Shown piece by piece: positions 5,315-55,439 of a DNA stretch of 64,000 nt. Position numbers and translations under genes: made by a program. Each line of letters opens with the position of its first letter. Positions within the stretch are counted from its first letter, which is position 1. Under the pieces are notes generated by a model, which was given only the letters and a program-made list of their open reading frames with translations, had not been told where the DNA came from and did not search any database. Source of the DNA: Lewinellaceae bacterium (GTDB taxonomy: Bacteria > Bacteroidota > Bacteroidia > Chitinophagales > Saprospiraceae); NCBI GenBank assembly GCA_020636075.1, contig JACJYO010000005.1:2926-66925 (forward strand). Direction: 5' to 3'.

Positions 5315-5998
5315 TTACTTAACAACCAGTTTATACCCTTCCCCGTGCGCGTTCAGTATTTCTATGCTGGGATCCTGTTTCAGGTAATTCCGCAGTTTAG
5401 TAATATAAACATTCAAGCTGCGGCTTTTGAGCTGATCGTCATCCTGCCAGACTTTGGCGAGTACAAAATCGCGCGTAACCAGCTTGTTTTTATGCTTGAA
5501 AAATACCTGGAGCAATTTGGACTCCATTGCAGACAATCGGATTGGTTGATCGCCATCGAATACCAGTTCCCTTGAAATGGGATCGAAGGAATATTGACCC
5601 AGTATGAATGCCTGCTCCCGGGTTTCTTCCTGATAGCCCACCCGTCTCAAGACGGCCTTTATCCGCAGATAAAGTTCTTCCATACTAAAGGGCTTGGTCA
5701 CGTAATCATCCGCGCCGATGGTTAGTCCCTTGATGCGGTCTTCCCTGTTTGTTTGTCCGGTGAGGAAAATGATGGGAACCTGCTCATCCAGATCCCGGAT
5801 ATCCGCAGCAAGGCTGAACCCGTCTTTGAAGGGCATCTTCACATCCAGAATGCAGCAATCGGCCCGCATGGTACGGAAAGCGGTCAGCCCGTCGGTGGCG
5901 TTGTGTTTCAAAATGACCTCGAAGCCCTTTTCCTGCAGGTATTCCGCCACCATGGCGCTGAACTGCATTTCGTCGTCGACAAAGAGTATGCTTTTCAT
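5315..5998 (-). CDS. OmpR/PhoB-type response regulator (REC + winged-helix), no adjacent kinase
   Basis: Likely start MKSILFVDDE (cat 5996-5998). REC motifs DCCILDVKMPFKDGF and LTIGADDYVTKPF. Winged-helix C-terminus LSAMESKLLQVFFKHKNKLVTRDFVLAKVW...SLNVYITKLRNYL...GEGYKLV. Confidence 0.85.
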   Translation of the reverse strand: MKSILFVDDEMQFSAMVAEYLQEKGFEVILKHNATDGLTAFRTMRADCCILDVKMPFKDGFSLAADIRDLDEQVPIIFLTGQTNREDRIKGLTIGADDYVTKPFSMEELYLRIKAVLRRVGYQEETREQAFILGQYSFDPISRELVFDGDQPIRLSAMESKLLQVFFKHKNKLVTRDFVLAKVWQDDDQLKSRSLNVYITKLRNYLKQDPSIEILNAHGEGYKLVVK

Positions 5999-6224
5999 TT
6001 TATGTGGAACGAAGATACGGGGACACATGCGATTCAGGGGCTAAACTTATCGTGATATGCCCAAAACGCTTGTCATGTTGCAAACAACTGCACAAGTCCA
6101 ATTTCAGCGTAAAATTTAGCCTGCAGCCGGCAAAAGTCAGGTGCCGAATGGGAAATAGCAAAGTCTTCATTGGTAGTCAAGATCCGGTGATACTGAATTC
6201 CGGGGCTATTTCTGGTTCAAATTA

Positions 6225-6254
6225 AACAATAGTGAAAGAATCCTGAACAATAGT
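6225..6254 (+). promoter_or_regulatory. Direct repeat AACAATAGT(G/C)A with 21-bp phasing, 70-100 nt upstream of fibre gene 6323
   Basis: aacaatagtga starts at 6225 and aacaatagtca at 6246. The site lies in the divergent region shared with the OmpR-type regulator. Confidence 0.35.
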
Positions 6255-6322
6255 CAAGGTCCACAGCCTTCCTGGCTTCGAACTTTGCCTCTGAAATAAA
6301 TTTATGGCAAACGTTCTCCATC

Positions 6323-18586: not shown

Positions 18587-18621
18587 AATGCGCATATAGT
18601 TCATGCCAATGCGCATATAGT
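18587..18621 (+). promoter_or_regulatory. Direct repeat AATGCGCATATAGT x2 with 21-bp phasing, upstream of fibre gene 18738
   Basis: Copies at 18587-18600 and 18608-18621, each containing the palindrome ATGCGCAT. The same pair occurs at 25922-25956. Confidence 0.45.
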
Positions 18622-18737
18622 CCAAGTCGCTTTTTCCGGCTCCCTACACCTTTGCAGCATCCGATTGACGACTGGCCATGCTACCCAGTGCCGCGCGGTC
18701 GTCAATGCATCATTTCACCATCATTTATTTGAAAATC

Positions 18738-25922: not shown

Positions 25923-25956
25923 ATGCGCATATAGTTCATGTCAATGCGCATATAGT
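25922..25956 (+). promoter_or_regulatory. Direct repeat AATGCGCATATAGT x2 with 21-bp phasing, upstream of fibre gene 26072
   Basis: Copies at 25922-25935 and 25943-25956. They are part of a ~200-nt block conserved with 18584-18790. Confidence 0.45.
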
Positions 25957-26071
25957 CCAAAGCCCTTTTCCCGTCTCCCTACACCTTTGCAACATCCGAT
26001 TAACGACTGGCCACGCTACCAGCGCCGCGCGGTCGTCAACGTATCATTTCACCATCATTTATTTGAAAATC

Positions 26072-30363: not shown

Positions 30364-33300
30364 TTGTCTGTGCTTTTCTTCCGCCATATCCGGTCTGTCT
30401 TATTTACCCTGGCAGTGGTTTGGGGTGGAACCTTATTTTTGCAGGCGCAACATGCCGGCCCGGCCCTGGAAACGCTGACGGTGGAAGACGGGCTCTCACA
30501 GGGTTATGCGAACACCTTTTTTCAGGATAGGGAAGGGTTTATTTGGATCGGTACGCGGAATGGTTTAAACCGCTATGATGGCTTTCGGTTCAAGGTGTTC
30601 GGTTATGATCCGCTTGACCCGTATTCAATTTCGAGCAGCCATATTAATTCTATTCAGGAATCTGGCGACTTTCTCCTGTTTGGCACCAACGAAGGCTTAA
30701 ATCTGTTTCACAAAAAAAGCCAGCGTTTTTATCGGTTACACGCTACGGACGATTTTGACCGAATATTGCAACATGCGAAGTTCTACAATATTTCCGTGGA
30801 TGAAGACGGCCGGGTATGGTGCCGGGTTTATATGGATAAAAATCACCCCATGCTTGTCCGGATTAAGCTCCAGATGCCGCTGTCTGAAATCAAAAACGTC
30901 ACGCCGGAAAACCTTACCGTTTCTGCTTACAAAACATGGGATAACAATGGCGCCGGGATCAATTCTTTTAAAGCGTTAGGCAGTAAAATTTGGGCTGTTT
31001 CAAAACGGCAAATTTTTAGCATTGACACCAAAACGGAACGCCTGGAATACCTCGACGTTCACTTGCCGAAACCATTCAATGCTTCCGATGCTTCTGGCGG
31101 CGCTGTTTGGTACTTTGCCGTTGACGGAATCGGCCGGCTTTCAGGAACGGACTGGAAGTGGTGGGAAACAGATTTCCAGCCCAGGTCTATTTTATTTTTG
31201 GAAGATTCCCGCACGCTTTTGGTGCTTTCAGACAATAAGGTACTGCGATTTGATGAACAGGCCTTGACCAAGAAACAGATCCAGGCAGCGGATGCGGAAA
31301 TATTGTTGGAAGCCGAAAAAGGAACGTTTATCGCTGCATTCCGCGACCGTTCCGGCTTGCTCTGGTTTGGCACCAACGGCTTTGGGCTGTTTAAGTATGC
31401 AGCGACGAAAAACCGCTTCAAAATCTATCTCGGGGGGTATTCGATCAAAGTGCCTTTGGCCGTTGACAGAGCTGGACATTTTGGTTATTATGCACCAATA
31501 GCCAAAGAGTGGATTTTTTCGTCGCCGGAACATAGTTATAATACTACCTCAAAACGCTTTAATCCGTTTACCCGTCTGTTCGTCGACCATATGGGCAGGG
31601 AATGGCTGTTTACGCCGGAAGGGAAAGGGCTGATGCTATACTGCCAATCGGGCAACAAAGGGGACTGGGAACAAATCGGTGCTTTACCCGGTCCTTACAA
31701 ACCTTATTTTGCTTTATCCGCTGATACGAATGGTGCAATTTGGATTGCTTTCAACCAAAGTTTGTTCAAATTAAAGTCATCGGGACAACTTGACGGAACA
31801 TTCGGCTTTGCCGACAAATTGACTAATTCAAACCGCATTACCGCCCTGCAACGAACACAAGGCGGCGTGTGGTGGATCGGTACAGACAATGGTTTACTTC
31901 AGGCTGTGCCCGAAAAAACGGGTTTTACATTCAAGATGTTCTACGTAAAACCAGGCAACAGTCAGGGCATTCAAAATAACTTCATCACCAGCCTGCTCAC
32001 CGATCCGCAACAGGATCACATACTCTGGATCGGCACCCAGGGTGGCGGCATGAGCCGCCTGGATACCCGCCGTATGGCGTTCGGGCATTTCAATACGCGA
32101 ACGGGATTCCCGGATAATGTGGTGTACGGCATTTTAGCCGATAATGACGGGCATCTGTGGATAAGTACAAACAGGGGGTTGGTACGCTTCGACACCAAAA
32201 CACAGGCCCTGAAACAATATACCGTGGAAGACGGCTTACCGACTGATGAATTCAACGTCTGGGCTTATGCAAAAAGCCCGGACGGATCCTTGCTTTTCGG
32301 CTCGGTGAAAGGATTGGTCGCTTTCAACCCAAGGAATTTTTCCGATAATCCGGTCGTCCCCCGGGTGGTATTTACGAGCCTGGAAATCAACAATCGCAGG
32401 GTAGTTTTTGGCGATTCTACCGGCTTGCTAAACCAGGCTATCGAATTTGTAAAAGAAATAAAAATACCCTTTGCTCAAAACAGTATTGCGCTGGAATTTG
32501 CTGCGCTGGAATTCACAGCACCTACCAAAAACAGGTACCGGTATTATCTGAAAGGTGCCGAACCCGAATGGGCACATACCTCGGCGGACCACCGGGCGAG
32601 TTACCTGAATCTTGCGCCGGGCCGGTACACCTTTATAGTCAAAGCCTGCAATAACGACGGTGTCTGGAGCGATGTGCCGACTATTTTAACCTTCACAGTG
32701 TTGCCACCCTGGTACCGTACCTGGTGGGCTTATCTGTTTTATGCTATTTTCCTGGGTGGAGGGGCTTTCCTTTTTTACCGATACCAGGTACGGCAACAAT
32801 TGGCGCGTGCAGAACACCTGCGCCTGAAAGAGCTGGACGCTTTTAAGTCGAGGTTGTTCACCAATATCACCCATGAGTTCCGAACACCACTAACGGTCAT
32901 TCAAGGCATGGCAGGTGAGCTGGCAACATACAGCAAGGAGAAACCGGGCAGCCGTTTCTGGCAGGCCAGTCAGCTTATTCGGCGCAATAGCGACGCGCTG
33001 CTGGGCCTGATCAACCAATTGCTCGACCTGGCCAAACTTGAGGCCAACGCGATGACCTTGCATCTCACCGAAACCGACCTGGTTCCATTTATTAAATACC
33101 TGACCGGCAGCTTCGAATCCTTGGCTGGCGGAAAGGATGTTCAGGTACACCTGTTTTGTTCAATAGATTCCATCCCCATCGCTATCGATAAAAATCAGGT
33201 GCAAACGATCTTGACCAACCTGCTTTCCAATGCCCTGAAATTCACACCGGCCAACGGCGACATCGATATCCGCCTGGAAAAAATTGCCGATTGGCAAAAC

Positions 33301-34464
33301 CAGCTTGGGCCAGAATATTTTCAGGCCGTTACTCCGGCAGCGGAATCATCAACCGAATGGGTATCTATCCAGGTACGCAATACCGGTCCCGGCATCGAAG
33401 CGGCACAGCTGCCGCATATTTTCGACCGTTTTTACCAGGCCGACCATGCGGAAAGCCGAAGTGGTATGGGTTCTGGAATCGGCCTGGCCCTGGTCAAGGA
33501 ACTGGTTCAACTGATGCAGGGCGCCCTTGCAGTTAAAAGCACACCCGGTGCGGAAACGGAGTTTGTTGTAGTCTTGCCGGTGGTACAGGCGCCAGAAAAA
33601 GACATATTGTCTGATTTTTCAATCACAACGCCTACACCAGCGCCCATCGGGATGTCGGGCGCCGAACCATTACCAGCCAGTATGGTCACGCCGGAAACTT
33701 CGGGTGATGTGCCCAGCCTGTTGATTATTGAAGACAATGCCGATGTGCTGCATTATATCACCGCCTGTGTGGAAGGTGCATATCAAATAACAACGGCGCC
33801 CAATGGCCAGCAAGGTGTCGATCAGGCTCTGGAAACCGTTCCGGATATCATCATCAGCGACATTATGATGCCCTTGAAAGACGGTTTCGAGGTAGTCGAC
33901 ACGCTAAAAAATGACACGCGCACCAGCCATATACCGATCGTCCTGTTAACGGCAAGAGCCGACCTCGGTTCCCGCATCAAAGGCCTGGAGCGCGGCGCCG
34001 ATGCCTATCTTGCAAAACCATTTGATAAAACGGAACTGTTGGTACAACTCCGAAATCTGCTTGAGCTTCGACGCAAACTACAGGCGCGCTATGCCAACGG
34101 GACCGCTATCTCCGGTGAACAGCCGAAAACAAGCCGGGAAGTATTTCTGGAAGATGCCTTTATCCAAAAAGTGCAGGCTGTCATGGAAGTTCATATGCAG
34201 GATGAAGACTTTGACGTTCCTGGTTTGTGCAAGGCCCTTGCCATGAGCCGTACCCAACTGCACCGCAAAATGAAAGCGCTTACCGGCAAATCTGCCACCC
34301 ACTACATCCGTTCCGTCCGCCTGCAAAAAGCCCGGCAACTGTTAAGCACCACCGATATGACCGTTTCGGAAGTTGCTTTTGAAGTTGGCTTTCGGAATTT
34401 ACCCTACTTCTCCACCTCTTTCACCGAAGAATTCGGCCAACCGCCCAGCAGCCTGAAAAAATAG
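30364..34464 (+). CDS. Hybrid two-component system sensor/regulator (propeller repeats, Y_Y_Y, TM, HisKA, HATPase, REC, AraC-type HTH)
   Basis: 1366 aa; the start is uncertain (TTG 30364 or GTG 30370). FIWIGTRNGLNRYDG-type repeats. RYRYYLKGAEPEWAH...GRYTFIVKACNNDGVWS. ITHEFRTPLT. GSGIGLALVKELVQLMQG. IISDIMMPLKDGF...ADAYLAKPF. SVRLQKARQLL...EVGFRNLPYFSTSFTEEFG. Confidence 0.9.
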   Translation: MSVLFFRHIRSVLFTLAVVWGGTLFLQAQHAGPALETLTVEDGLSQGYANTFFQDREGFIWIGTRNGLNRYDGFRFKVFGYDPLDPYSISSSHINSIQESGDFLLFGTNEGLNLFHKKSQRFYRLHATDDFDRILQHAKFYNISVDEDGRVWCRVYMDKNHPMLVRIKLQMPLSEIKNVTPENLTVSAYKTWDNNGAGINSFKALGSKIWAVSKRQIFSIDTKTERLEYLDVHLPKPFNASDASGGAVWYFAVDGIGRLSGTDWKWWETDFQPRSILFLEDSRTLLVLSDNKVLRFDEQALTKKQIQAADAEILLEAEKGTFIAAFRDRSGLLWFGTNGFGLFKYAATKNRFKIYLGGYSIKVPLAVDRAGHFGYYAPIAKEWIFSSPEHSYNTTSKRFNPFTRLFVDHMGREWLFTPEGKGLMLYCQSGNKGDWEQIGALPGPYKPYFALSADTNGAIWIAFNQSLFKLKSSGQLDGTFGFADKLTNSNRITALQRTQGGVWWIGTDNGLLQAVPEKTGFTFKMFYVKPGNSQGIQNNFITSLLTDPQQDHILWIGTQGGGMSRLDTRRMAFGHFNTRTGFPDNVVYGILADNDGHLWISTNRGLVRFDTKTQALKQYTVEDGLPTDEFNVWAYAKSPDGSLLFGSVKGLVAFNPRNFSDNPVVPRVVFTSLEINNRRVVFGDSTGLLNQAIEFVKEIKIPFAQNSIALEFAALEFTAPTKNRYRYYLKGAEPEWAHTSADHRASYLNLAPGRYTFIVKACNNDGVWSDVPTILTFTVLPPWYRTWWAYLFYAIFLGGGAFLFYRYQVRQQLARAEHLRLKELDAFKSRLFTNITHEFRTPLTVIQGMAGELATYSKEKPGSRFWQASQLIRRNSDALLGLINQLLDLAKLEANAMTLHLTETDLVPFIKYLTGSFESLAGGKDVQVHLFCSIDSIPIAIDKNQVQTILTNLLSNALKFTPANGDIDIRLEKIADWQNQLGPEYFQAVTPAAESSTEWVSIQVRNTGPGIEAAQLPHIFDRFYQADHAESRSGMGSGIGLALVKELVQLMQGALAVKSTPGAETEFVVVLPVVQAPEKDILSDFSITTPTPAPIGMSGAEPLPASMVTPETSGDVPSLLIIEDNADVLHYITACVEGAYQITTAPNGQQGVDQALETVPDIIISDIMMPLKDGFEVVDTLKNDTRTSHIPIVLLTARADLGSRIKGLERGADAYLAKPFDKTELLVQLRNLLELRRKLQARYANGTAISGEQPKTSREVFLEDAFIQKVQAVMEVHMQDEDFDVPGLCKALAMSRTQLHRKMKALTGKSATHYIRSVRLQKARQLLSTTDMTVSEVAFEVGFRNLPYFSTSFTEEFGQPPSSLKK

Positions 34465-34497
34465 GCCTTCAGCATCTTTCAGAGGCGGTTTTCTTGC

Positions 34498-34539
34498 ATT
34501 TGGAACATATCCGAAAACATTTGGAACATATCCGAAAAC
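34498..34539 (+). promoter_or_regulatory. Perfect tandem direct repeat 2 x 21 bp (ATTTGGAACATATCCGAAAAC), between HTCS stop and fibre gene 34672
   Basis: Copies at 34498-34518 and 34519-34539, followed by a degenerate third core acggaatatgg. Confidence 0.5.
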
Positions 34540-34671
34540 ACGGAATATGGCCGGGCCAGCACTTTTGTGTCATCCTCCCATTGAAGTTGTAACGGCTGAA
34601 CTCAAACACTGCTGGCTACCCTGTGCGGCATCTGTTCAGACGGCATTTTGAATCATTAAAATCTGAACACA

Positions 34672-37600
34672 ATGTTTAAAAAACCCAACCTAATTCGGCT
34701 GTACGCGCTGCTGTTTTGCAGCTTGCTTTTTGCTGCACAGTTATCGGCACAGGTAAGCATTAACCAGGACAATTCGAACCCGGACCCGTCGGCAATGCTC
34801 GACATCAAGAGCAATGCAAGGGGTTTGCTGATCCCGCGCCTGAGTTCGGTACAACGCGCCGGCATCGCAGCGCCCGCCACCGGCCTGATGGTGTACGATA
34901 TTACAACAAATTCATTTTGGTTCTACAACGGAACAGCCTGGAAGGAGATAACCCTCAATACCGATAACCAGATGCTCAGTCTGACGGGCACCACGCTGGC
35001 CATTGAAGACGGCAACTCCGTTGACCTTGCCGGCATCGATACGGATACGGACGATCAAACGCTTAGTCTGAGCGGTACCACACTGACTATCGCCGATGGC
35101 AACTCGGTCGATCTGGCCTCTATTGATACGGACACGGACACCGATGACCAAAACCTTTCGTTGACGGGCACCACGCTGGCCATTGAAGACGGCAACTCCG
35201 TTGACCTTGCCGGCATCGATACGGATACGGACGATCAAACGCTTAGTCTGAGCGGTACCACACTGACTATCGCCGACGGCAACTCGGTCGATCTGGCCTC
35301 TATTGATACGGACACTGACACCGACGACCAGAACCTTTCGCTGACGGGCACCACGCTGGCCATTGAAGACGGCAACTCGGTTGACCTTGCCGGCATCGAT
35401 ACGGATACGGACGATCAAACGCTCAGCCTCAGCGGTACCACACTGACTATCGCCGACGGCAACTCGGTCGATCTGGCCTCCATCGATACCGATACGGACA
35501 CCGATGATCAAAACCTTTCGTTGACGGGCACCACGCTGGCCATTGAAGACGGCAACTCGGTTGACCTTGCCGGCATCGATACGGATACGGACGATCAAAC
35601 GCTCAGCCTCAGCGGTACCACACTGACTATCGCTGACGGTAACTCGGTCGATCTGGCCTCTATTGATACGGACACTGACACCGACGACCAGAACCTTTCG
35701 TTGACGGGCACCACGCTGGCAATTGAAGACGGCAACTCGGTTGACCTTGCCGGCATCGATACGGATACGGACGATCAAACGCTCAGCCTCAGCGGTACCA
35801 CACTGACTATCGCTGACGGTAACTCGGTCGATCTGGCCTCTATTGATACGGACACTGACACCGACGACCAGAACCTTTCGTTGACGGGCACCACGCTGGC
35901 AATTGAAGACGGCAACTCCGTTGACCTTGCCGGCATCGATACGGATACGGACGATCAGACGCTCAGCCTCAGTGGTACCGTCCTGAGCATCGAAGGCGGC
36001 AACTCCGTCGACCTGGGAACACTTCCAGGGGATAACGACTGGACACTCAGCGGCAGCGACCTGTACAATGCCAACGCCGGAAATGTCGGTATCGGCACCG
36101 CTTCGCCCGATGCCACAGCCCGACTGCACCTGGATATCGGGAGCAGTTTCAATCAAGGTTTTTTGGTCACTGGAGATGCAAGTGGTTCAGCTACAGTACC
36201 CAACCTGGGTGCCGGAAACCGAATGATGTTTTACCCGGGAAAAGCGGCTTTTCGGGCAGGGCGGGTTACCGGCACGCAATGGGACCAGGCAAATACCGGA
36301 TTCCGTTCTACCGCTTTTGGGACCAATACCACTGCCAGCGGAGTTTCATCAACTGCCATGGGCGAGGGGACGACAGCAAGCGATAGCTATTCCACGGCCA
36401 TGGGTAGGAATACAATTGCCGGCGCAACGGCATCAACAGCCATGGGTGAACAAACCACTGCCAGCGGCTATGCTTCCACGGCCATGGGCAGTTTATCCAC
36501 TGCCAGCGGATTTGCGTCAACAGCCATGGGCGAACAAACAACTGCCAGCGGCTATGCCGCTGCGGCCACAGGTTTTCTTACAACTGCAAGCGGTAATTAT
36601 TCAGTTGCGCAAGGCGATCATACCAAAGCTACCGGTACACTTTCAACAGCCATAGGTAAAAATATTGAGGCCCGGGGCGACTATTCCGTAGCCATTGCGC
36701 TCAACGACCAAAATGGCACGGTTGTCACCAAGGACAACACCATGGCAATCATGGGCGGGAATGTCGGCATCGGCACGACTAACCCCAATGCCACAGCCAG
36801 GCTGCATGTGAACCTGGGAAGCAGTACAAGTGACGGCTTTATGGTATCCGGCACGTTTGATAATGCTGCAACGTCGCCTAATTTGAGTTCGGGGAGCTAC
36901 ATGATGTTCTATCCTGGGAAAGCGGCTTTCCGGGCAGGCCTGATTTATGCGAATGGTACACAATGGAATGATGTAAATGTCGGATACATATCGACAGCAT
37001 TTGGTAATAATACCCTTGCAAGTGGCAATTATTCAACTGCCTTTGGCCGTGATACCAAAGCAACCGGTGCTCTTTCAACAGCCATGGGAGAACTATCTAC
37101 CGCTAGTGGTGATTATTCAACTGCTTTGGGGGCAAATGCTGTTGCAAGCGGAAACTATTCAACTGCATTTGGCAATAGTACATTAGCCAGCAATGGCTCT
37201 TCAACTGCCTTCGGTCGTAATACCCAAGCAACCGGTGCTATTTCAACAGCCATGGGAGGACAAACTACCGCCAGCGGCGATTATTCAACTGCCATGGGTA
37301 ATCAAACCACAGCCAGCGGTCTTTACGCAACAGCAATGGGCTTTAAAACGAAAGCCACCGGCGACAACGCACTGGCCATAGGTGAGAATATTGAAGCCCA
37401 GGGAAGCCACTCCATAGCCATAGCACTCGACAATCAAGCCGGAACAGTTGTTTCGCAGAATAATACCATGGCTATTCTGGGCGGCGATGTCGGAATCGGT
37501 ACAGCCAACCCGCAATCAAGGTTCCATGCCGAAGGCCCGGCCAACGGTGCCGGAGATTCGGATTTTGTAGCTATTATTAGAAACACGCAAACCAGCGCCC

Positions 37601-38175
37601 TTAACGGCACGCGCTACAACGGCTTGAAAATACAAGCAGGGAAAACCCTAAACAACAATGCTGACTCCCGCATGATCGCCTTTTACCGCACTGATAATAT
37701 TGAGATCGGATCCATCCGCCAAAACAATTCCAATACCGTCAGTTACAACACCAGCTCCGATATCCGCCTGAAACAGCATATCGTGCCGACGCATTATTCC
37801 ATCGCCGATCTGATGCGGGTCGAGGTGCGGGATTATGAATTCCGCGCTGAGCCCGGCCAGCCGCACACCGGTTTTATTGCCCAGCAATTGTACGAGGTGT
37901 ATCCGCATGCAGTCGCCAAAGGCAGCGACGATGTGAAAACCAACCCCTGGATGGTCGACTACGGCCAGATGACACCGCTCCTGGTCAAGGCAATCCAGGA
38001 TCAACAGGCTATCATCGAAGCGCAGAAACTGGAGATCGATGCCCTCAAAGCGCAAAATGCCAACCTGGTCAGCCAAAATGCGGTTTTTGAAAATCGTTTT
38101 GAGCAAATGGAGACCGCGCTGAAGAGTATACAGGCAGGGGCATCAGGCCATGGTGTTATCGCCGGGCAGAAGTAA
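34672..38175 (+). CDS. Exported tail-fibre-like protein, S74-type, with 12 stalk repeats
   Basis: 1167 aa. ...AAQLSA|QVSINQDNSNPDPSAMLDIKSNARGLLIPRLSSVQR. 12 x (Q.LSL.GTTL.I.DGNSVDL..IDTDTD). STAMG..TTASG.YSTAMG (Hep_Hag-like) repeats. SSDIRLKQHIV...GFIAQQLYEVYPHAV...WMVDYGQMTPLLVKAIQDQQ (Ser codon 37756). Confidence 0.85.
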   Translation: MFKKPNLIRLYALLFCSLLFAAQLSAQVSINQDNSNPDPSAMLDIKSNARGLLIPRLSSVQRAGIAAPATGLMVYDITTNSFWFYNGTAWKEITLNTDNQMLSLTGTTLAIEDGNSVDLAGIDTDTDDQTLSLSGTTLTIADGNSVDLASIDTDTDTDDQNLSLTGTTLAIEDGNSVDLAGIDTDTDDQTLSLSGTTLTIADGNSVDLASIDTDTDTDDQNLSLTGTTLAIEDGNSVDLAGIDTDTDDQTLSLSGTTLTIADGNSVDLASIDTDTDTDDQNLSLTGTTLAIEDGNSVDLAGIDTDTDDQTLSLSGTTLTIADGNSVDLASIDTDTDTDDQNLSLTGTTLAIEDGNSVDLAGIDTDTDDQTLSLSGTTLTIADGNSVDLASIDTDTDTDDQNLSLTGTTLAIEDGNSVDLAGIDTDTDDQTLSLSGTVLSIEGGNSVDLGTLPGDNDWTLSGSDLYNANAGNVGIGTASPDATARLHLDIGSSFNQGFLVTGDASGSATVPNLGAGNRMMFYPGKAAFRAGRVTGTQWDQANTGFRSTAFGTNTTASGVSSTAMGEGTTASDSYSTAMGRNTIAGATASTAMGEQTTASGYASTAMGSLSTASGFASTAMGEQTTASGYAAAATGFLTTASGNYSVAQGDHTKATGTLSTAIGKNIEARGDYSVAIALNDQNGTVVTKDNTMAIMGGNVGIGTTNPNATARLHVNLGSSTSDGFMVSGTFDNAATSPNLSSGSYMMFYPGKAAFRAGLIYANGTQWNDVNVGYISTAFGNNTLASGNYSTAFGRDTKATGALSTAMGELSTASGDYSTALGANAVASGNYSTAFGNSTLASNGSSTAFGRNTQATGAISTAMGGQTTASGDYSTAMGNQTTASGLYATAMGFKTKATGDNALAIGENIEAQGSHSIAIALDNQAGTVVSQNNTMAILGGDVGIGTANPQSRFHAEGPANGAGDSDFVAIIRNTQTSALNGTRYNGLKIQAGKTLNNNADSRMIAFYRTDNIEIGSIRQNNSNTVSYNTSSDIRLKQHIVPTHYSIADLMRVEVRDYEFRAEPGQPHTGFIAQQLYEVYPHAVAKGSDDVKTNPWMVDYGQMTPLLVKAIQDQQAIIEAQKLEIDALKAQNANLVSQNAVFENRFEQMETALKSIQAGASGHGVIAGQK
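34960..36020 (+). repeat. About 5.9 near-identical tandem copies of a 180-bp coding unit (two ~30-aa sub-repeats each)
   Basis: (c/t)tgacgggcaccacgctgg recurs at 34981, 35161, 35341, 35521, 35701 and 35881. Copies differ by a few mostly synonymous bases. Confidence 0.9.
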
Positions 38176-38207
38176 GTGCCGACAGCATTTTCCTTCGAGA
38201 TTAACCG

Positions 38208-38279
38208 CCACAAGACAACGGAGGGCACTGAGTTTTCCTTTCTAAAAAGTTTTACTCGGTGCCCTCTGTGTCTTCGTGG
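38208..38279 (+). other. Imperfect ~25-bp-stem hairpin between fibre and partner genes (REP-like, related to 18246-18314)
   Basis: ccacaagacaacggagggcactgag ... ctcggtgccctctgtgtcttcgtgg with a 22-nt loop. The core CCACGRARACACAGMGGGCACMGAG is shared with the 18.2-kb hairpin. Confidence 0.6.
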
Positions 38280-38296
38280 TGCATAAAAATCTCGCC

Positions 38297-40154
38297 ATGC
38301 GCAACATAAAATTTACAGTACTTCTGCTGCTGTGTGCAGGCTGGAGTTACGGCCAGCAATCCTTCCAAATTGCTGGTGGCCGGATGAACATCAGCAACGG
38401 CACCAGCCTTGTTTTGAAGAAAAACCATTTGGAAAAACAACTCCGGTTCGGATGATACCGGTACGGGCAGCGTGCTATTCTCCGGCGATGCAACCGGAAT
38501 CAATATCGGCGGAAGTAGCGCCACCCAGTTTTCCAAGTTGATTATCGATAACCCCAACAACGTGTTTGCGGAGCAAAACATGGCCGTTACGCAGGAATTG
38601 AACTTCCAAAACGGCAAGCTGGATTTGCAAAATGCCAACCTCACCCTGGCCGGCAACACCACCAACCTCAGCCCCGATCGCTATGTGAAAACCTCGGGCA
38701 CAGGCGTTGTGATCCGGGGGCTGACTACCGGAGCCGAATACCTTTTTCCCGTAGGAAATTCCAGTTACAACCCTTTGGTATTGCAGGACCCATCCGGCGG
38801 CTCGAACCAGTTCGCGGTGCGGGTCGCGGATGCGGTGCTGGCCGACGGCAGTTCTGGCGCAGTGCTGACAACTGACGCCGTTGCGCGCAGCTGGTATGTT
38901 GGGGGTACTGGCGGTGAATACCCGGATTTGCAGATCCGTGCCGGCTGGAGCAGCCCGGATGAGTTGCCCGGCTTTGACCGCAACGCCGCCTACCTGGCCC
39001 GCTACACCGGCAGCAACTGGGATCTGCTGCCGGCCATTCCGGCATCTGGCGCCGATCCGTACACACTGGCGCGCACAGGCGGCTCGGTACCGGCAATTTA
39101 TGCCGTGCTGAGTGGCGATATCACCCCGCCTTCGGCACTTTGCCAGGACATTACGGTTGAGCTCGATGCTACCGGCATGGCAAGCATCACAGCTGCCCAG
39201 ATAGACGGTGGTTCCAGTGATGTCAATGGCATTGTTTCCTATGTATTGGATGTGTCGGAATTTTCCTGCACCAATGTGGGCATCAATATAGTAACGCTAA
39301 CACTGACCGATCCGGCAGACAACAGTTCCACTTGCACGGCTACGGTCACCGTTGCGGATAATCTTGCGCCTTCAATTAATTTGGAAGCAGAAGCGTTTTT
39401 GTGGCCGCCCAATCACAATTACGTGACCATACCAGTTGAGGATATGGTGGCAGATGTGACGGACAACTGCGCCGGGTTGACTATTGCCGATGTAGTGATC
39501 AGCTACGCCACCAGCGACGAACCGGAGGATGCCCCGGGCGGCGGCGACGGCAACACGCTCGACGATATTCTCATTGATGCAGATTGCCAGGCTGTATCCT
39601 TGCGCAAAGAACGCATGGGCGGCGGAAATGGCCGGGTATATACGGTTCATCTTGAACTGACCGACGTCCATGGAAATACTGCCAAGGCCCAGTACCTGGC
39701 CAAAGTCAAAAACAACAACGGCAACAATGGAACGGCTATCGACGACGGGCCGGCATATTCGGAAAGCTGCGGTGTAAACCAAAGCATAGTGCGCGAACAG
39801 GGAACTGATCCGGCAACTTATTTGAGAAGGAAAAACTTAGAAACCAAATCCGGGCAGCAAAACCCAACGGATGATACATCCTTGGCAAATCTTAGGATTT
39901 CTCCAAACCCGTTTGCAATGCAGACGACTATTCGTTTCAGGTTGCCGATGACCTGCGGTGTTCAGTTGGAAGTGTATGATCTGGAGGGTAAACAACTGCG
40001 CACGCTGGTATCCGGCGCTCTGGAAGCCGGCGCCTATTCGGTGGATTGGGACGGCAAGTCGGGCAGCGGATATGAGCTGCCTGAGGGTAATTATCTCCTG
40101 CGGTTGATCACCGGACAAGAAATCCGGATGAAACAAGTTGTGCTCATCCGGTAA
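38297..40154 (+). pseudogene. Partner-family gene (short, Ig/HYR-like variant) with a 1-nt insertion in an A5 run (38433-38437)
   Basis: ATG 38297 gives MRNIKFTVLLLLCAGWSYG|QQSFQIAGG...KKNHLEK then stops at 38453. Frame 0 is open from 38418 and reads WKNNSGSDDTGTGSVLFSGDATG... to 40154. Shared central domain FPVGNSSYNPLVLQ...ELPGFDRNAAYLARY. CTD ISPNPFAMQTTIRFRLP...LEVYDLEGKQL. Confidence 0.7.
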
Positions 40155-41939: not shown

Positions 41940-44900
41940 CTAAAGCATCACCGCCAGCGCCTTTTCTTTTAATTCGCCGGCCAATTGGATAAGTGCCGTT
42001 CCGTTGCTTCCGTTTTCTGCCTGTTGCTCGATAGCGTAAGCGATCTCGGCGATTTGCTCCAGTCCTACATAACGGAATTGACTTTTGAGGTCATGGGCAA
42101 TAATGGACACCTGTTCCAGATCTCCTTTTTCCAGGCAATTTTGCAATTGCTCTATGTGCACCGGCATTTGCGTTTTAAACAAGGAAAGGTATTGTTGTAC
42201 CTTTTTTTCATCATTGGCCAAAAGGGCTTTCAATTTTGACCGGTCAATCCTGAGTTGATTGTTGGTCAATGCATCTATTTTTTCCAATAATTGGATCTCA
42301 TCAACCGGTTTAGTCAGCACATCGTCCATTCCGGCCTCTTTGCATTTTGCCAGTTGTTCCGGTAGGGCATTGGCTGTTACGGCGAGTATGGGGATCTGTT
42401 TCCATTTTGGGTTTTCAGAATCCCGGATGGCTACGGTGGTTGCATAGCCGTCCATGACGGGCATTTTAATATCCATCAGAATAAGGTCATACTCCTGCTC
42501 TTCTAATTGCTCCAAGGCTATTTTCCCGTTTCCGGCGATATGTACAGCTGCGTCGGGAATGTGTTTTTTCAATATTTCCGTTATGATCTGCTGGTTCAAT
42601 TCATGGTCTTCCACAAGCAGTATTTTCAATGCTGAAAAATGGAAGTCGGCAGTCGTTCCCTTTTTTTCTATGCCATCCTGGGCCGCATTTTCAAACGGCA
42701 CTTCGAAAAAGAGCTTCGTGCCGGCCCCCAGTTGGCTTTCAATGTGTAAGGTGCTGCCGTGCAACTCCACCAATTGCCGGGCGATGCCAAGACCAAGTCC
42801 CGTACCAGACGCTGAAGAGCCGTGATCACCTGCCTGTTGGAAGCGTTCAAAAATCGTCTCGATCTGGTTTTCCGGAATGCCGATGCCTGTGTCACCGACT
42901 TCAAATCGGAAGTTTGCTCTATTTTCCGGTCCTGCGGTTTCCTGTATGCTGAGCCAAACTTTTCCCTGCTCGGTAAACTTTATAGCATTGGCCAAAAGGT
43001 TGGTCAATATTTGCAACAGGCGGACCGGGTCGCCCATCAATAGTGGATCCTTATCGGATATAGTATCCAGATAGAATTCCAGCCCTTTTTCTTCTGCCTT
43101 GAACCGGAAATTGTTGTTCAACTGGTCAACAATTTCAGTGAGCCGGAAAGGTTTATTGGCCAGCGTGAATTTACCCGCCTCCAGTTTTGTGTGGTCCAGC
43201 AGATCGTTGATAATAGCCAGCAGATTTTGAGAAGACTGCCGGATGGCGGAGATGTATTTCGATGGCTTATCGCTGATGCCGGCATCCTGGGCCAAGTTAC
43301 TCAAACCGATTATGGCGTTCATAGGGGTCCTGATTTCATGGCTCACTTCGGCAAGGAAGCGGGTTTTGTACTCGGCCTGCTGCTCAGCCAGGGCTTTTTC
43401 CCGTTTCAGCGCCAACTGGTACTGCCGGCTTTTGAATATGGCGTAACCAATTGAAACAGCCATTAAGGCCAGCAAGGACTTGAACCACAGTGTTTGCCAA
43501 AAAGCAGGTGTGATAGCCAACTGAATATTCAGGCCGTCTTTGTTCCAAACGCCATCGCTGTTCGATGCCATGACCTGAAAGGTGTATTGGCCGGGGTCTA
43601 AATTGGTATAATTCATTCTATGTTCAGTCCCCAAATCCCGCCAGTTTTTATCAAAGCCGACCAGCCTGCATTTGTATTTATTGGCTTGCGGGTTGATATA
43701 ATGCAGCGCAGAAAATTCAAAGCTGATATCATTTTCATTGTGGGACAGAATAATCAATTTGGTATCTTCAAATGCCTGATCCAACAGATACGACTCGGCT
43801 TTCACCTTGAAATCTGTCAAAATCACATTGGGCACAATTGGGTTTTGACGGATATGCTGTGGATGGAAGGAAAATATGCCATTGATCGTTCCAAGGAAAA
43901 TGGCGCCGTCGGCTGCCACATGTTTGGCTTTTGATTGAAAGTAAAGCGCTTCTTTGGGAATTAAAAAATTGTAAAAGGTATCCTTGCTTTGGTCAAACCG
44001 GGCAAAAAACCGGTTGCCGCTGACCCATACCTGATCGTTTTTGTCCATGAAAACGGATTGTAACTCGTTTTCCAACATGCCTTCCTTTTTCCCGTATATC
44101 CCGAATTTCTTCGTGTGAATATTGTAGTTGGTCAACCCATACAAGGATGCTATCCATATATTTCCGTCTTTCCCTATTGCAATGTCTTTAATTACCCCTT
44201 CCAGCACATCTTTATTATCAGGATCCGGGAGAAACAATTCAAACTTTCCGGATTTCTTGTCGAACCTGCCCAGACTGTTTGAGTAGGTGTAGTACAACCA
44301 AATCTCGTCGTCTCCATATTGATCAAAAATGATAAAGCGGTTGGAGGAAACTTCAGGAATATCACGCCTGGGATAGAACCATTGTCGTTCGGATGTTTTC
44401 CAGTTCAACCGGCAAAGGCCATGGAGCGTACCAATCCAGAAAACATCTTTATCCTTATGGTCTATTTCCATTTTGAAAATCAATGTCTTGGAAAGCGTAT
44501 CACCAAACGACATTTTTCGAAAACCCTTTTCGCTTACCGTGCGGCTGTACAAACCGCGGCCACTCATTGAAAACCAAATGGTTCCTTCATAATCCTCCAG
44601 AAACCAAGATTCCCCGGTTCCCAAGGCTTGCAGGGAAAGTTCTTCAATTTTTTCGCCTTGTGTCTTTCCTTTTGGAATAGCGTAGACGCCTTCGGGTGTT
44701 TTCGTCCAGATCGTGCCCTTGCTGTCGCGCAAGACGCGGTTGATCGTATTGGCATTATTTCCGTCTACCCCCACATTTAACAACAGCTCAAAGCCGGAAA
44801 AATCCCTTCTGATCTTACTGATCCCGTTTCCGGTGCCTATCCAGATATTCTGGAATCGATCTTCCAACAGGCAGCTGACCACATTATTATTGAGGCTTTT

Positions 44901-45893
44901 ATTCCGATTGGCTTCGTATTTATAATGGCTAAACCGTTTTTGCTGAATATCGTACACACCCAGGCCATTATCATCGAGCGCGAACCAGGGGTTACCTTTC
45001 TTGTCCAGGATTAAAGCGTTTATCGTAGTATTTTCTATGCCGGCAGGCACAAAACCCTTTTTTATCACTTTGGTATCCGGATTCCAGTTGACTAATCCGC
45101 CTTGTGTCGCCAGCCAAAAAGATCCATCCGAGGCTTCGCAAATCGCCTCGATTATTTTATTGTTTGCACTTTGATGATCAGGGTCGGGGAGGATGTGCCG
45201 GAATGTTGAATCGCCGGGATTCAGTTTTAACAAACCGTACGATGTTCCGGCCCAAACCGAACCATGCCTGTCTTCAATAAAGGCTCTTACAAAATGTTTT
45301 GCTTCCGGTTTGCCTGCTTCATGCGTAGGTATAAATTGATGGGACCTTCTGTCAAATCGGAGCATATTCTTGGCGGAGAGGGAAGCCAGCCAAATGTTCC
45401 CACGGCTATCTTCAAAAACCCTTCGGATAAGATTCGTGCTCTTGGTGGTTGGTTCATTCCGCGGCGCCAGCAGAAACCGTTGGAATTTGCCGGTTCTTCG
45501 GTCCAAAAAATTAAGCCCGTAATTGGTCCCAATCCATAACTCGCCATTCCTGGTCTCGCAGATATCTCTGATGTTAGGGCTAGACAGGGTAGTAGTATCC
45601 CGAATAGTATGGCGGTAAACTTTAAATTCGTACCCATCGTACCGGAATAGTCCTTCGTTGGTTCCAAACCATAAAAAACCGAATTGGTCTTCTTTTATAT
45701 CGAAAATAAAACTGTTGGGGTATCCATACCCGGCACTCACCCGTTCAAAATCAACAGTACCGATTTGAGCGTATATGAGCGCAGTGTGAAAGAAAAATGT
45801 AAGAGGGCAGGTAATGCATAAAAACAGGTTCCTGGTTGCCAGGTTTTCCAATTGTCTACGGATGAATGGGTATGCGTTTTCGAAATTGGCCAT
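41940..45893 (-). CDS. Hybrid sensor histidine kinase (propeller repeats, Y_Y_Y, TM, HisKA, HATPase, REC, HPt); no DNA-binding output
   Basis: 1317 aa. FLWFGTNEGLFRYDG-type repeats. KYKCRLVGFDKNW...GQYTFQVMASNSDGVWN. VSHEIRTPMNAIIG. GTGLGLGIARQLVELHG. LILMDIKMPVMDGY...MDDVLTKPV. HPt-like IAHDLKSQFRYVGL. Confidence 0.9.
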   Translation of the reverse strand: MANFENAYPFIRRQLENLATRNLFLCITCPLTFFFHTALIYAQIGTVDFERVSAGYGYPNSFIFDIKEDQFGFLWFGTNEGLFRYDGYEFKVYRHTIRDTTTLSSPNIRDICETRNGELWIGTNYGLNFLDRRTGKFQRFLLAPRNEPTTKSTNLIRRVFEDSRGNIWLASLSAKNMLRFDRRSHQFIPTHEAGKPEAKHFVRAFIEDRHGSVWAGTSYGLLKLNPGDSTFRHILPDPDHQSANNKIIEAICEASDGSFWLATQGGLVNWNPDTKVIKKGFVPAGIENTTINALILDKKGNPWFALDDNGLGVYDIQQKRFSHYKYEANRNKSLNNNVVSCLLEDRFQNIWIGTGNGISKIRRDFSGFELLLNVGVDGNNANTINRVLRDSKGTIWTKTPEGVYAIPKGKTQGEKIEELSLQALGTGESWFLEDYEGTIWFSMSGRGLYSRTVSEKGFRKMSFGDTLSKTLIFKMEIDHKDKDVFWIGTLHGLCRLNWKTSERQWFYPRRDIPEVSSNRFIIFDQYGDDEIWLYYTYSNSLGRFDKKSGKFELFLPDPDNKDVLEGVIKDIAIGKDGNIWIASLYGLTNYNIHTKKFGIYGKKEGMLENELQSVFMDKNDQVWVSGNRFFARFDQSKDTFYNFLIPKEALYFQSKAKHVAADGAIFLGTINGIFSFHPQHIRQNPIVPNVILTDFKVKAESYLLDQAFEDTKLIILSHNENDISFEFSALHYINPQANKYKCRLVGFDKNWRDLGTEHRMNYTNLDPGQYTFQVMASNSDGVWNKDGLNIQLAITPAFWQTLWFKSLLALMAVSIGYAIFKSRQYQLALKREKALAEQQAEYKTRFLAEVSHEIRTPMNAIIGLSNLAQDAGISDKPSKYISAIRQSSQNLLAIINDLLDHTKLEAGKFTLANKPFRLTEIVDQLNNNFRFKAEEKGLEFYLDTISDKDPLLMGDPVRLLQILTNLLANAIKFTEQGKVWLSIQETAGPENRANFRFEVGDTGIGIPENQIETIFERFQQAGDHGSSASGTGLGLGIARQLVELHGSTLHIESQLGAGTKLFFEVPFENAAQDGIEKKGTTADFHFSALKILLVEDHELNQQIITEILKKHIPDAAVHIAGNGKIALEQLEEQEYDLILMDIKMPVMDGYATTVAIRDSENPKWKQIPILAVTANALPEQLAKCKEAGMDDVLTKPVDEIQLLEKIDALTNNQLRIDRSKLKALLANDEKKVQQYLSLFKTQMPVHIEQLQNCLEKGDLEQVSIIAHDLKSQFRYVGLEQIAEIAYAIEQQAENGSNGTALIQLAGELKEKALAVML

Positions 45894-55282: not shown

Positions 55283-55348
55283 AATACGAGAACTTTACCT
55301 TTTGATGGAAATAAACAAACACAAAGTTGCCGGCACCCGACTGAAAAA

Positions 55349-55380
55349 AATCCGACATTAAACAAAAGGAATCCGACATT
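55349..55380. promoter_or_regulatory. Direct repeat AATCCGACATT x2 with 21-bp phasing, 67-98 nt upstream of fibre gene 50477-55282
   Basis: Copies at 55349-55359 and 55370-55380 (plus-strand reading), in the only long (157-nt) spacer inside the minus-strand array. Confidence 0.4.
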
Positions 55381-55439
55381 TTGGAAAGTATGCTCCCGCA
55401 AAACCGCCGTTTTCCCGGCATAATCAAATAGGCCACAAC

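What the first reader, a model, noticed from the sequence alone, without database searches (positions are those of the whole stretch)
34498..34550. Perfect 2 x 21-bp tandem repeat between the AraC-output HTCS and the next fibre gene: candidate HTCS operator
ATTTGGAACATATCCGAAAAC is repeated exactly (34498-34518, 34519-34539), followed by a third degenerate core (acggaatatgg). It lies 34 nt after the HTCS stop and ~130 nt before the ATG of fibre gene 34672. AraC-type domains, including those of Bacteroides HTCS regulators, typically bind direct repeats phased by two helical turns. Position and phasing fit an operator through which the sensor 30364-34464 controls the fibre/partner pair.
Basis: partly seen in the sequence, partly recalled or inferred. 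Interest (0 to 1): 0.62.

Follow-up and report, generated by a model that had tools for sequence, protein, structure and literature searches.

The report
Sensor-regulator binding site before fibre gene
The exact 2 x 21-bp repeat is very probably the docking site through which the neighbouring membrane sensor-regulator (an AraC-output hybrid two-component system) switches on the promoter of the next surface-fibre gene. This kind of site is already known from gut Bacteroides, but here it is wired to a fibre gene instead of sugar-utilisation genes.

Summary
ATTTGGAACATATCCGAAAAC occurs twice in exact tandem at 34498-34539, and nowhere else in the 7.07-Mb genome, a Lewinellaceae/Saprospiraceae MAG from activated sludge.

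- Nine related loci in five genomes keep two direct units, GGAACA-N4-CGrAArCA, spaced 21 bp apart (20 bp in two loci).
- In all nine, the proximal box lies exactly 40 nt before the TTTG of a conserved Bacteroidota -7 promoter box, CACyTTTG (34560-34567).
- The sequence between the repeat and the box, and the distance from the HTCS stop codon, both vary freely.
- With a predicted start site near 34572, the units cover -70..-53 and -49..-32. This is the geometry of an AraC-type activator site.
- The repeat follows the HTCS even where the downstream gene is different.
- Residues of the two recognition helices co-vary with the two boxes.
- Other HTCS paralogues carry their own 21-bp-phased repeats, and some of these recur at other fibre promoters in the window.

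Published work already describes HTCS sites as tandem half-sites about 21 bp apart, and such sites have been footprinted. This is therefore a new member of a known kind. What is unusual is the target, a phage-tail-fibre-like gene rather than a polysaccharide utilisation locus. The proposed third degenerate core is not conserved. Binding, the start site and the direction of regulation remain untested.

The parts
30364..34464 (+). Hybrid two-component system: periplasmic Reg_prop/Y_Y_Y sensor, HisKA-HATPase kinase, receiver, and a C-terminal AraC-type double helix-turn-helix. It is the presumed cognate regulator.
   Evidence: Pfam hits. The H-box HEFRTPL (H837) and the receiver motifs are intact, and the N-terminus is hydrophobic. 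The recognition helices read MSRTQLHRK and GFRNLPYFSTSF.
34465..34497 (+). Short spacer holding a weak hairpin and a T-run (TTTTCTT, 34489-34495). It may be an intrinsic terminator of the HTCS gene or an A/T tract upstream of the operator.
   Evidence: The T-run sits at -85..-78 in all nine loci, preceded by stems of differing sequence. Folding is significant in only 2 of 9 loci. Status: inconclusive.
34502..34519 (+). Distal operator unit GGAACATATCCGAAAACA (about -70..-53). It has two boxes, GGAACA and CGAAAACA, one helical turn apart.
34523..34540 (+). Proximal operator unit GGAACATATCCGAAAACA (about -49..-32). It abuts the position where a -33 promoter element would lie.
   Evidence: It is the best-conserved part of the intergenic region apart from the -7 box: mean pairwise identity is 0.70, against 0.46 for the spacer. 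The distance to the TTTG is 40 nt in 9 of 9 loci.
34541..34559 (+). Non-conserved spacer between the operator and the -7 box.
   Evidence: Two strain substitutions fall here, at 34547 and 34559.
34560..34567 (+). -7 promoter box CACTTTTG (Bacteroidota consensus TAnnTTTG / TAHHTTTG). The predicted transcription start is near 34572.
   Evidence: The box is conserved as CACyTTTG in 9 of 9 loci. In this genome TAHHTTTG is enriched on the sense strand upstream of genes (708 against 364), and CAHHTTTG more weakly (367 against 264). The consensus and the positions -12..-5 come from PMC6847099 and PMC7366714.
34572..34671 (+). Predicted 5' leader of about 100 nt. It ends in AAAATCTGAACACA before the ATG, a stretch conserved among the fibre paralogues.
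   Evidence: Alignment. No Rfam match and no significant RNA fold (z = -1.5).
34672..38175 (+). Target gene: an exported fibre protein with a signal peptide, YadA_head repeats, a 30-aa stalk repeat and a C-terminal Peptidase_S74 chaperone.
   Evidence: The same N-terminus (AQV.INQDNS.PDPSAMLD) follows the operator in 7 of the 8 loci where the downstream gene was read.

Best explanation
The 42-bp exact repeat is the operator of the HTCS encoded immediately upstream. Each 21-bp unit holds a bipartite site, GGAACA-N4-CGAAAACA, with the two boxes about one helical turn apart. One AraC-type domain would read each unit with its two helix-turn-helix motifs: HTH1 on the GGAACA box and HTH2 on the CGAAAAC box. 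The two units, 21 bp apart and so on the same face of the helix, would take the two DNA-binding domains of the kinase-linked HTCS dimer, head to tail. The operator covers about -74..-33 of a Bacteroidota sigma-A-type promoter. That promoter has a slightly sub-optimal -7 box (C instead of T at -12) and no -33 TTTG. Once the periplasmic sensor is stimulated and the receiver phosphorylated, the bound HTCS would recruit RNA polymerase and start transcription near 34572. The transcript would cover the fibre gene and probably the partner gene after it.

Shown here: the repeat itself, its conservation, its invariant geometry, its association with the HTCS, and the co-variation.

Inferred: binding, the transcription start, activation rather than repression, and co-transcription of the partner gene.
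For: (1) The repeat is exact and unique in the genome.

(2) Nine loci keep two direct units 21 bp apart (7 loci) or 20 bp apart (2 loci). They are four paralogues in this genome, three in G006, one in G018 and one in MAG JADJRC01. The proximal box lies exactly 40 nt from the TTTG of CACyTTTG in all nine, while the distance from the stop codon to the repeat ranges from 36 to 111 nt.

(3) Mean pairwise identity is 0.70 for the proximal unit and 0.94 for the -7 box. It is 0.46 for the spacer and 0.33 just downstream.

(4) In G018 the downstream gene is a different T9SS cargo (YVTN-type propeller), yet the operator is kept.

(5) Co-variation. HTH1 SRTQ goes with G(G/C)AACA, including the distant L090 and L092. 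SRAQ goes with (G/T)AGACA, including a Prolixibacteraceae locus. SRMQ goes with GTTACA. HTH2 (R/K)N goes with C(G/C)AAAAC, and (R/K)H with CGGAArC.

(6) Generality. 15 of 54 HTCS 3' flanks in the genus carry a repeat of at least 13/16 matches at period 20-22, against 18 of 600 control flanks (Fisher p = 3e-9) and 0 of 270 shuffles. Genome-wide there are 40 'direct repeat plus -7 box' architectures, against 13 in the reversed genome.

(7) Two other HTCS-adjacent repeat types recur only at further fibre-locus promoters: ATGCGCATATAGTyCA x2 at 18588 and 25923, and AATGTCGGATT x2 at 55380 on the minus strand.

(8) A strain variant seen in two metagenome runs has 10 substitutions in the 207-nt intergenic region and none in the 42-bp repeat.

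(9) Literature. Predicted Bacteroides HTCS motifs are direct repeats with a mean spacing of 21 bp (PMC3878776). DNase footprints of BT4124 show tandem half-sites about 21-22 bp apart, each read MarA-like by two helices in adjacent major grooves (PMC13292587).

(10) The HTCS is intact.
Against: There is no experimental or transcript evidence. No RNA run holds the locus, so the start site and promoter are inferred from a consensus. The -7 box has C where the consensus has a nearly invariant T at -12. The co-variation rests on few independent events, and neighbouring DNA is inherited together with the gene. The strain-level absence of substitutions is not significant on its own (p about 0.1). One characterised HTCS (BT4124) represses from tandem half-sites (PMC13292587), so the sign of regulation is not settled. 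The paralogue at C27:76.8 kb has a very similar operator and near-identical helices, so cross-talk is possible.
Confidence: 0.8

Rival explanations
1. The site and protein are the same, but the effect is opposite. The HTCS binds the two units and represses or fine-tunes the fibre promoter, as reported for BT4124 in Bacteroides thetaiotaomicron.
For: PMC13292587 shows an HTCS repressing genes preceded by tandem half-sites. The proximal unit reaches -32, so it could occlude polymerase.
Against: The site lies wholly upstream of the -7 box, at the classic AraC/RhaS/XylS activator position. The promoter lacks a -33 element and has a weakened -7 box, which is typical of activator-dependent promoters. 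The rigidly fixed 40-nt distance suggests a stereospecific contact with polymerase.
Confidence: 0.1
2. The repeat is a regulatory site, but it is bound by another factor. Candidates are a paralogous HTCS (cross-talk), a stand-alone AraC-family protein, or the orphan OmpR-type response regulator at 5315-5998 fed by the HPt-containing hybrid kinase 41940-45893.
For: OmpR/PhoB proteins also bind direct repeats. The paralogue at C27:76.8 kb has nearly the same helices and boxes.
Against: Each repeat type sits directly after one particular HTCS gene and changes with that HTCS's recognition helices. At least three different repeat types occur in this window, so a single OmpR-type protein cannot explain them. 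The operator remains where only the HTCS is conserved.
Confidence: 0.06
3. The repeat is a recent neutral slippage duplication with no function, or an RNA-level element in the HTCS 3' UTR or the fibre leader.
For: The two units are 21/21 identical, more alike than in any related locus (15-19/21). This looks like a young duplication or gene conversion.
Against: The two-unit structure and its geometry are conserved in nine loci that have diverged to 33-46% identity in the flanking DNA. There is no Rfam match and no significant fold. The small ORFs across the repeat are not conserved. The repeat lies upstream of the inferred start site.
Confidence: 0.03

Closest known systems
Operators of Bacteroides hybrid two-component systems (RegPrecise/Ravcheev 2013 motifs; BT4124 and BT4663 sites, PMC3878776, PMC11253607, PMC13292587)
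   Same: The regulator has the same domain architecture. The site has two direct half-sites about 21 bp apart in the promoter of a neighbouring gene, with one AraC-type domain per half-site. Motifs are paralogue-specific and track the HTH phylogeny.
   Different: The host is a Saprospiraceae/Lewinellaceae bacterium from activated sludge. The target is a phage-tail-fibre-like exported protein, plus a T9SS partner, and not a susC/susD polysaccharide utilisation locus. The site lies directly after the regulator's own stop codon, and its two units are identical. Binding has not been shown here.
AraC/XylS-family activator sites abutting the -35 region (AraC araI1-I2, RhaS, MelR; MarA/Rob marbox). 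Recalled from general knowledge, not tested here.
   Same: These are direct repeats phased by two helical turns and ending next to the -35-equivalent region. Each monomer site is bipartite, with two recognition elements one turn apart, like RE1/RE2 of the marbox.
   Different: The promoter is of the Bacteroidota sigma-A type, with a -7 TAnnTTTG box and no -10/-35 hexamers. The regulator is a membrane-anchored sensor kinase fusion, so the DNA must be bound at the membrane.
Bacteroidota primary promoter (-33 TTTG / -7 TAnnTTTG; PMC7366714, PMC6847099)
   Same: CACTTTTG matches A-11, T-8, T-7, T-6 and G-5, and has no G at -10 or -9. The motif class is enriched upstream of genes in this genome.
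   Different: It has C instead of T at -12 and no -33 TTTG. C at -12 is the rule among the repeat-associated promoters of this genome (30 CA against 10 TA), although TA dominates overall (708 against 367).

Membership tests
Bacteroidota HTCS operator (tandem direct half-sites) | Two direct half-sites with a centre-to-centre distance of about 21 bp | tested here: met
   Exact 21-bp period. The period is 21 bp in 7 related loci and 20 bp in 2.
Bacteroidota HTCS operator (tandem direct half-sites) | A cognate HTCS with an AraC-type (HTH_18) output domain is encoded in the same locus | tested here: met
   ORF 30364-34464 has the full domain set and intact phospho-sites.
Bacteroidota HTCS operator (tandem direct half-sites) | The motif is conserved next to orthologous or paralogous regulators and diverges with the HTH domain | tested here: met
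Bacteroidota HTCS operator (tandem direct half-sites) | Physical binding by the HTCS DNA-binding domain | not testable with these tools
   Needs EMSA or footprinting.
Bacteroidota HTCS operator (tandem direct half-sites) | The regulated genes form a polysaccharide utilisation locus (susC/susD-like) | tested here: not met
   The downstream genes are a YadA_head/Peptidase_S74 fibre and a T9SS-tailed partner. This is the usual context of HTCS operators rather than a mechanistic requirement.
AraC/XylS class-II-like activator site | A bipartite monomer site: two conserved boxes about 10-11 bp apart within each unit | tested here: met
   GGAACA and CGrAArCA are conserved, the 4 nt between them are variable, and box starts are 10 nt apart.
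AraC/XylS class-II-like activator site | The proximal site abuts or overlaps the -35-equivalent region of a mapped promoter | tested here: inconclusive
   The proximal unit ends 19 nt before the -7 box in 9 of 9 loci. The transcription start is not mapped, because no RNA runs hold the locus.
Bacteroidota sigma-A promoter | A -7 element TAnnTTTG at the proper distance upstream of the gene | tested here: inconclusive
   CACTTTTG matches 5 of the 6 near-invariant positions. The motif class is enriched upstream of genes in this genome. There is no 5'-end data.
Intrinsic terminator of the HTCS gene (34465-34497) | A stable G+C-rich hairpin followed by a T-run | tested here: inconclusive
   The T-run is conserved, but the stems are weak. 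The fold z-score is significant in 2 of 9 loci, and the consensus scan did not call it.
OmpR/PhoB-type response-regulator site | The motif is shared by promoters that a single winged-helix regulator would control | tested here: not met
   This motif is unique in the genome. The other fibre promoters carry different repeats, each matching a different HTCS.

The most novel reading that the evidence does not exclude
In Saprospiraceae, the glycan-sensing HTCS family, so far known as regulators of polysaccharide utilisation loci, has been re-used as a set of mutually insulated sensor/operator pairs. There are at least four in the GGAACA clade of this genome, plus the ATGCGCAT and ATGTCGGATT types. 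Each pair switches on a different phage-tail-fibre-like surface fibre, so the cell would choose which fibre to display according to which periplasmic ligand it senses. A simple recognition code (the third residue of S-R-x-Q in HTH1, and N or H in HTH2) would keep the pairs orthogonal.
Probability: 0.45. Interest if true: 0.55.

Novelty: new member of a known kind. Interest (0 to 1): 0.4.

Why it matters
The site links a sensor to its output in an uncultured but abundant wastewater bacterium. It turns the 'fibre plus partner' cassettes of this genome from unexplained cargo into signal-controlled genes.

The nine-locus comparison yields a precise promoter model that can be tested directly: operator at -74..-33, -7 box at -12..-5, start near 34572. 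It also yields candidate specificity residues for HTCS DNA-binding domains, for which little experimental information exists. A natural set of closely related but distinct HTCS/operator pairs could serve as orthogonal switches for genetic tools in Bacteroidota.

The site does not reveal a new mechanism.

Tried and rejected
1. Rfam scan of 34200-34900 at E <= 1 found nothing.

2. An RNA fold of the intergenic region was not significant (z = -1.5). The small ORFs over the repeat are not conserved.

3. The sigma-70-type promoter scan is not informative for this phylum, and it called no terminator between the HTCS gene and the repeat.

4. I looked for transcript evidence. No RNA run holds the locus. 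The DNA runs are Logan contigs only, so rare copy-number variants of the repeat could not be assessed. No insertion or deletion appeared in 8 runs.

5. A metagenome-wide pattern scan for the double unit returned 8 stretches, all unrelated 21-bp microsatellites. None followed an AraC domain or preceded a -7 box.

6. An ECF-sigma promoter reading (GGAAC as a -35) was rejected. The conserved features are two phased units plus a sigma-A-type -7 box, there is no conserved -10-like CGT element, and no ECF/anti-sigma pair lies next to it.

7. The third degenerate core was rejected as a site because it is not conserved beyond CAyG.

8. My first control for repeat frequency (flanks of all long ORFs) was contaminated by coding repeats of period 14 and 21 from the fibre genes. 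The contrast is still strong, but the control rate of 3% is an overestimate.

9. I tested whether the repeats at 18588 and 25923 came with a piece of the C25 HTCS gene. DNA similarity covers only the operator-to-(-7 box) block.

Full report
**1. Observation**

The window reads CATTTGGAACATATCCGAAAA twice in tandem. Tandem Repeats Finder gives period 21, 2.1 copies and 100% matches.
- With up to three mismatches there are no other copies in the window, and none in 100 shuffles.
- There are none elsewhere in the 7.07-Mb assembly.
- The upstream ORF 30364-34464 is a complete hybrid two-component system (HTCS): Reg_prop, Y_Y_Y, HisKA, HATPase_c, Response_reg and HTH_18/AraC. Its H-box and receiver motifs are intact.
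- The downstream ORF 34672-38175 is an exported fibre with YadA_head repeats and a Peptidase_S74 chaperone.
- The organism is a Lewinellaceae/Saprospiraceae MAG from activated sludge.

**2. Conservation and geometry**

A DNA search of relatives showed that similarity to paralogous and orthologous loci runs from the HTCS 3' end through the repeat. Alignment, followed by anchoring on the boxes, gave nine loci:
- four in this genome: the window, C27:76.8 kb, C31:2.6 kb and C24:0.3 kb;
- three in G006;
- one in G018;
- one in MAG JADJRC01.

All nine have two direct units of the form GGAACA-N4-CGrAArCA.
- The units are 21 bp apart in seven loci and 20 bp in two.
- The proximal box is exactly 40 nt from the TTTG of a conserved CACyTTTG in all nine.
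- The distance from the stop codon to the first unit ranges from 36 to 111 nt.
- The 19-nt stretch between the operator and CACyTTTG is not conserved.

Mean pairwise identity by segment:

| Segment | Identity |
|---|---|
| Proximal unit | 0.70 |
| CACyTTTG box | 0.94 |
| Spacer | 0.46 |
| Just downstream of the box | 0.33 |

A fixed distance between two conserved blocks with free sequence between them is what a promoter with an activator site looks like. A neutral duplication would not show this pattern.

**3. The promoter**

CACTTTTG (34560-34567) fits the Bacteroidota -7 element TAnnTTTG/TAHHTTTG at A-11, T-8, T-7, T-6 and G-5 (PMC6847099 and PMC7366714). It has C at -12.

In this genome TAHHTTTG is twice as frequent on the sense strand as on the antisense strand upstream of long ORFs (708 against 364), peaking 20-60 nt before the ATG. 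CAHHTTTG is moderately enriched (367 against 264).

Taking G34567 as -5 puts the start near A34572. That gives a 100-nt leader and these positions:
- distal unit (34502-34519) at -70..-53;
- proximal unit (34523-34540) at -49..-32;
- no TTTG where a -33 element would lie.

A weakened -7 box, no -33 element and a site ending at about -32 are the classic marks of an activator-dependent promoter. This last step is inference from general knowledge of AraC/XylS regulators.

**4. Link to the HTCS**

(a) In G018 the gene after the operator is not a fibre. It is a YVTN-type propeller protein with a T9SS sorting domain, yet the operator and -7 box are kept. The element therefore goes with the regulator rather than with the fibre gene.

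(b) The recognition helices co-vary with the boxes.

| Helix residues | Box | Loci |
|---|---|---|
| HTH1 S-R-T-Q | G(G/C)AACA | six clade loci, plus L090 and L092 from other genera |
| HTH1 S-R-A-Q | (G/T)AGACA | L027, L028, L030, and the distant Prolixibacteraceae locus L072 |
| HTH1 S-R-M-Q | GTTACA | three loci |
| HTH2 (R/K)-N | C(G/C)AAAAC | window, its G006 orthologue, L072 |
| HTH2 (R/K)-H | CGGAArC | the remaining clade loci |

The number of independent events is small, so I call this suggestive. It nevertheless assigns HTH1 to the first box and HTH2 to the second.

(c) The pattern is general.
- Among 54 HTCS 3' flanks from this genus, 15 have a repeat of at least 13/16 matches at period 20-22, and 14 of those are exactly 21. 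The comparison figures are 18 of 600 control flanks and 0 of 270 shuffles.
- Orthologues share operators and paralogues differ.
- Genome-wide, 40 'phased repeat plus -7 box' architectures are found, against 13 in the reversed genome.

(d) Other operator types recur at other promoters of the fibre loci.
- ATGCGCATATAGTyCA x2 lies next to the HTCS on contig C25. It also lies at 18588 and 25923 in the window.
- AATGTCGGATT x2 lies next to the HTCS just beyond the window's end (C27:68.1 kb). It also lies at 55380 on the minus strand, before fibre 50477-55282.

The motif of this finding has a single genomic site, so this HTCS appears to have a one-promoter regulon.

**5. Population data**

Eight activated-sludge DNA runs hold the locus. 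A divergent strain, seen in X3 and X9, carries 10 substitutions in the 207-nt intergenic region. None falls in the 42-bp repeat, and one falls at the tolerated -9 position (T to C, giving the CACCTTTG of the paralogues). No length change was seen.

On its own this is weak: the chance of no substitution in the repeat is about 0.1. It is consistent with the rest. These runs are contigs, so rare slippage variants cannot be excluded.

**6. Comparison with what is known**

Ravcheev et al. (PMC3878776) predicted motifs for 16 Bacteroides HTCSs. All are direct repeats, with an average distance of 21 bp.

PMC13292587 footprinted BT4124 on tandem half-sites 21-22 bp apart. It modelled each half-site as read MarA-like by two helices in adjacent major grooves, with two DNA-binding domains supplied by the kinase-linked dimer.

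The present site has all these features. It differs in three ways:
- the host lineage, for which I found no paper on HTCSs in Saprospiraceae;
- the target, a fibre gene rather than a PUL;
- the perfect identity of the two units.

BT4124 acts as a repressor, so the sign of regulation cannot be taken for granted. The geometry here favours activation.

**7. What is not supported**

The 'third degenerate core' is specific to this locus. Only CAyG, the last bases of the proximal unit, is conserved.

Control of the partner gene is plausible, because the gap 38176-38471 holds no -7 box and no phased repeat. It has not been shown.

The short hairpin and T-run between the stop codon and the operator may terminate the HTCS transcript, but the folding evidence is weak.

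**8. Verdict**

I give 0.8 to 'operator of the adjacent HTCS that activates the fibre promoter'. Most of the remainder goes to the same site acting negatively, or to binding by a related regulator.

This is a new member of a known kind of element. Its interest is moderate. It lies in the unusual target, and in the clean natural series of operator/regulator pairs, which gives testable specificity rules.

Noticed in passing
window 18588-18654 and 25923-25989 (+); own genome C25:4090-4020 (-): The pair ATGCGCATATAGTTCA / ATGCGCATATAGTCCA, 21 bp apart and followed by CACCTTTG, occurs at exactly three places in the genome. One is directly after the stop codon of an HTCS on contig C25. The other two precede genes in this window (18678 and 26063). 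That distant or unscaffolded HTCS probably controls both. DNA similarity between the three covers only the operator-to-(-7 box) block.
   Followed up: partly
window 55340-55390 (-); own genome C27:67781-67700 (-), about 900 nt beyond the window end: AATGTCGGATT x2 (21-bp phase) followed by CAAyTTTG lies directly after another AraC-output HTCS just outside the window. It appears again in the only long gap of the minus-strand fibre array, before gene 50477-55282. One HTCS would thus have two promoters about 9 kb apart.
   Followed up: partly
window 6223-6260 (+); own genome C23:44985-60271, C23:106558/113550, C31:30731-38521, C27:254096, C2:105975: There is a large family of 21-bp-phased repeats with the core AAACAATAGTyC, each about 37-41 nt before CAyyTTTG. 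It includes the site upstream of fibre 6323 and clusters of 3-5 promoters on contigs C23 and C31. It looks like a multi-promoter regulon of an AraC-type regulator rather than of the neighbouring OmpR-type protein.
   Followed up: no
genome-wide: Promoter-like sites that follow a 21-bp-phased repeat have C at -12 of the -7 box in 30 of 40 cases (CAyyTTTG). Among all gene-upstream -7 boxes, T at -12 dominates (708 TA against 367 CA). C at -12 may mark activator-dependent promoters in this organism.
   Followed up: partly
window 34465-34497: A T-run (TTTTCTT), preceded by a weak stem, follows the A-rich end of the HTCS coding sequence (CTGAAAAAATAG). An equivalent T-run sits at -85..-78 in all nine related loci, with stems of differing sequence. 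It may be an intrinsic terminator or an A/T tract. Folding is significant in only 2 of 9 loci.
   Followed up: partly
window 34634-34671: An 8-bp perfect inverted repeat, TGTTCAGA ... TCTGAACA, could pair the last bases of the leader just before the ATG. The 3' arm is part of the leader end AAAATCTGAACACAATG, which is conserved among the fibre paralogues. The 5' arm is not conserved in the other loci.
   Followed up: no
L064 (JADJRC010000002.1) 1501-1815: The closest relative of the C27:76.8-kb paralogue in another Lewinellaceae MAG has an in-frame stop inside the AraC domain (…YMQD*DFDV…), while its operator and -7 box are intact. This is either a pseudogene or an assembly error.
   Followed up: no
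L072 (CAJXZG010000054.1, Prolixibacteraceae MAG), about 20-62 nt after the HTCS stop: A distant HTCS (49% identical HTH region) carries ATTGAGACAAATCCCAAAACA / TTTGAGAAAATCTCCAAAACA, 21 bp apart. This is the same operator type as in the window, so the motif family extends beyond Saprospiraceae.
   Followed up: partly
runs X3, X6, X15, X17 laid on window 34500-34539: The same sludge samples hold short contigs of a second organism whose operator (TTGGAACATTTCCGGAAAC x2) and flanks match the G006 C30:46-kb locus. Related Lewinellaceae with sister HTCS-fibre modules therefore co-occur.
   Followed up: no
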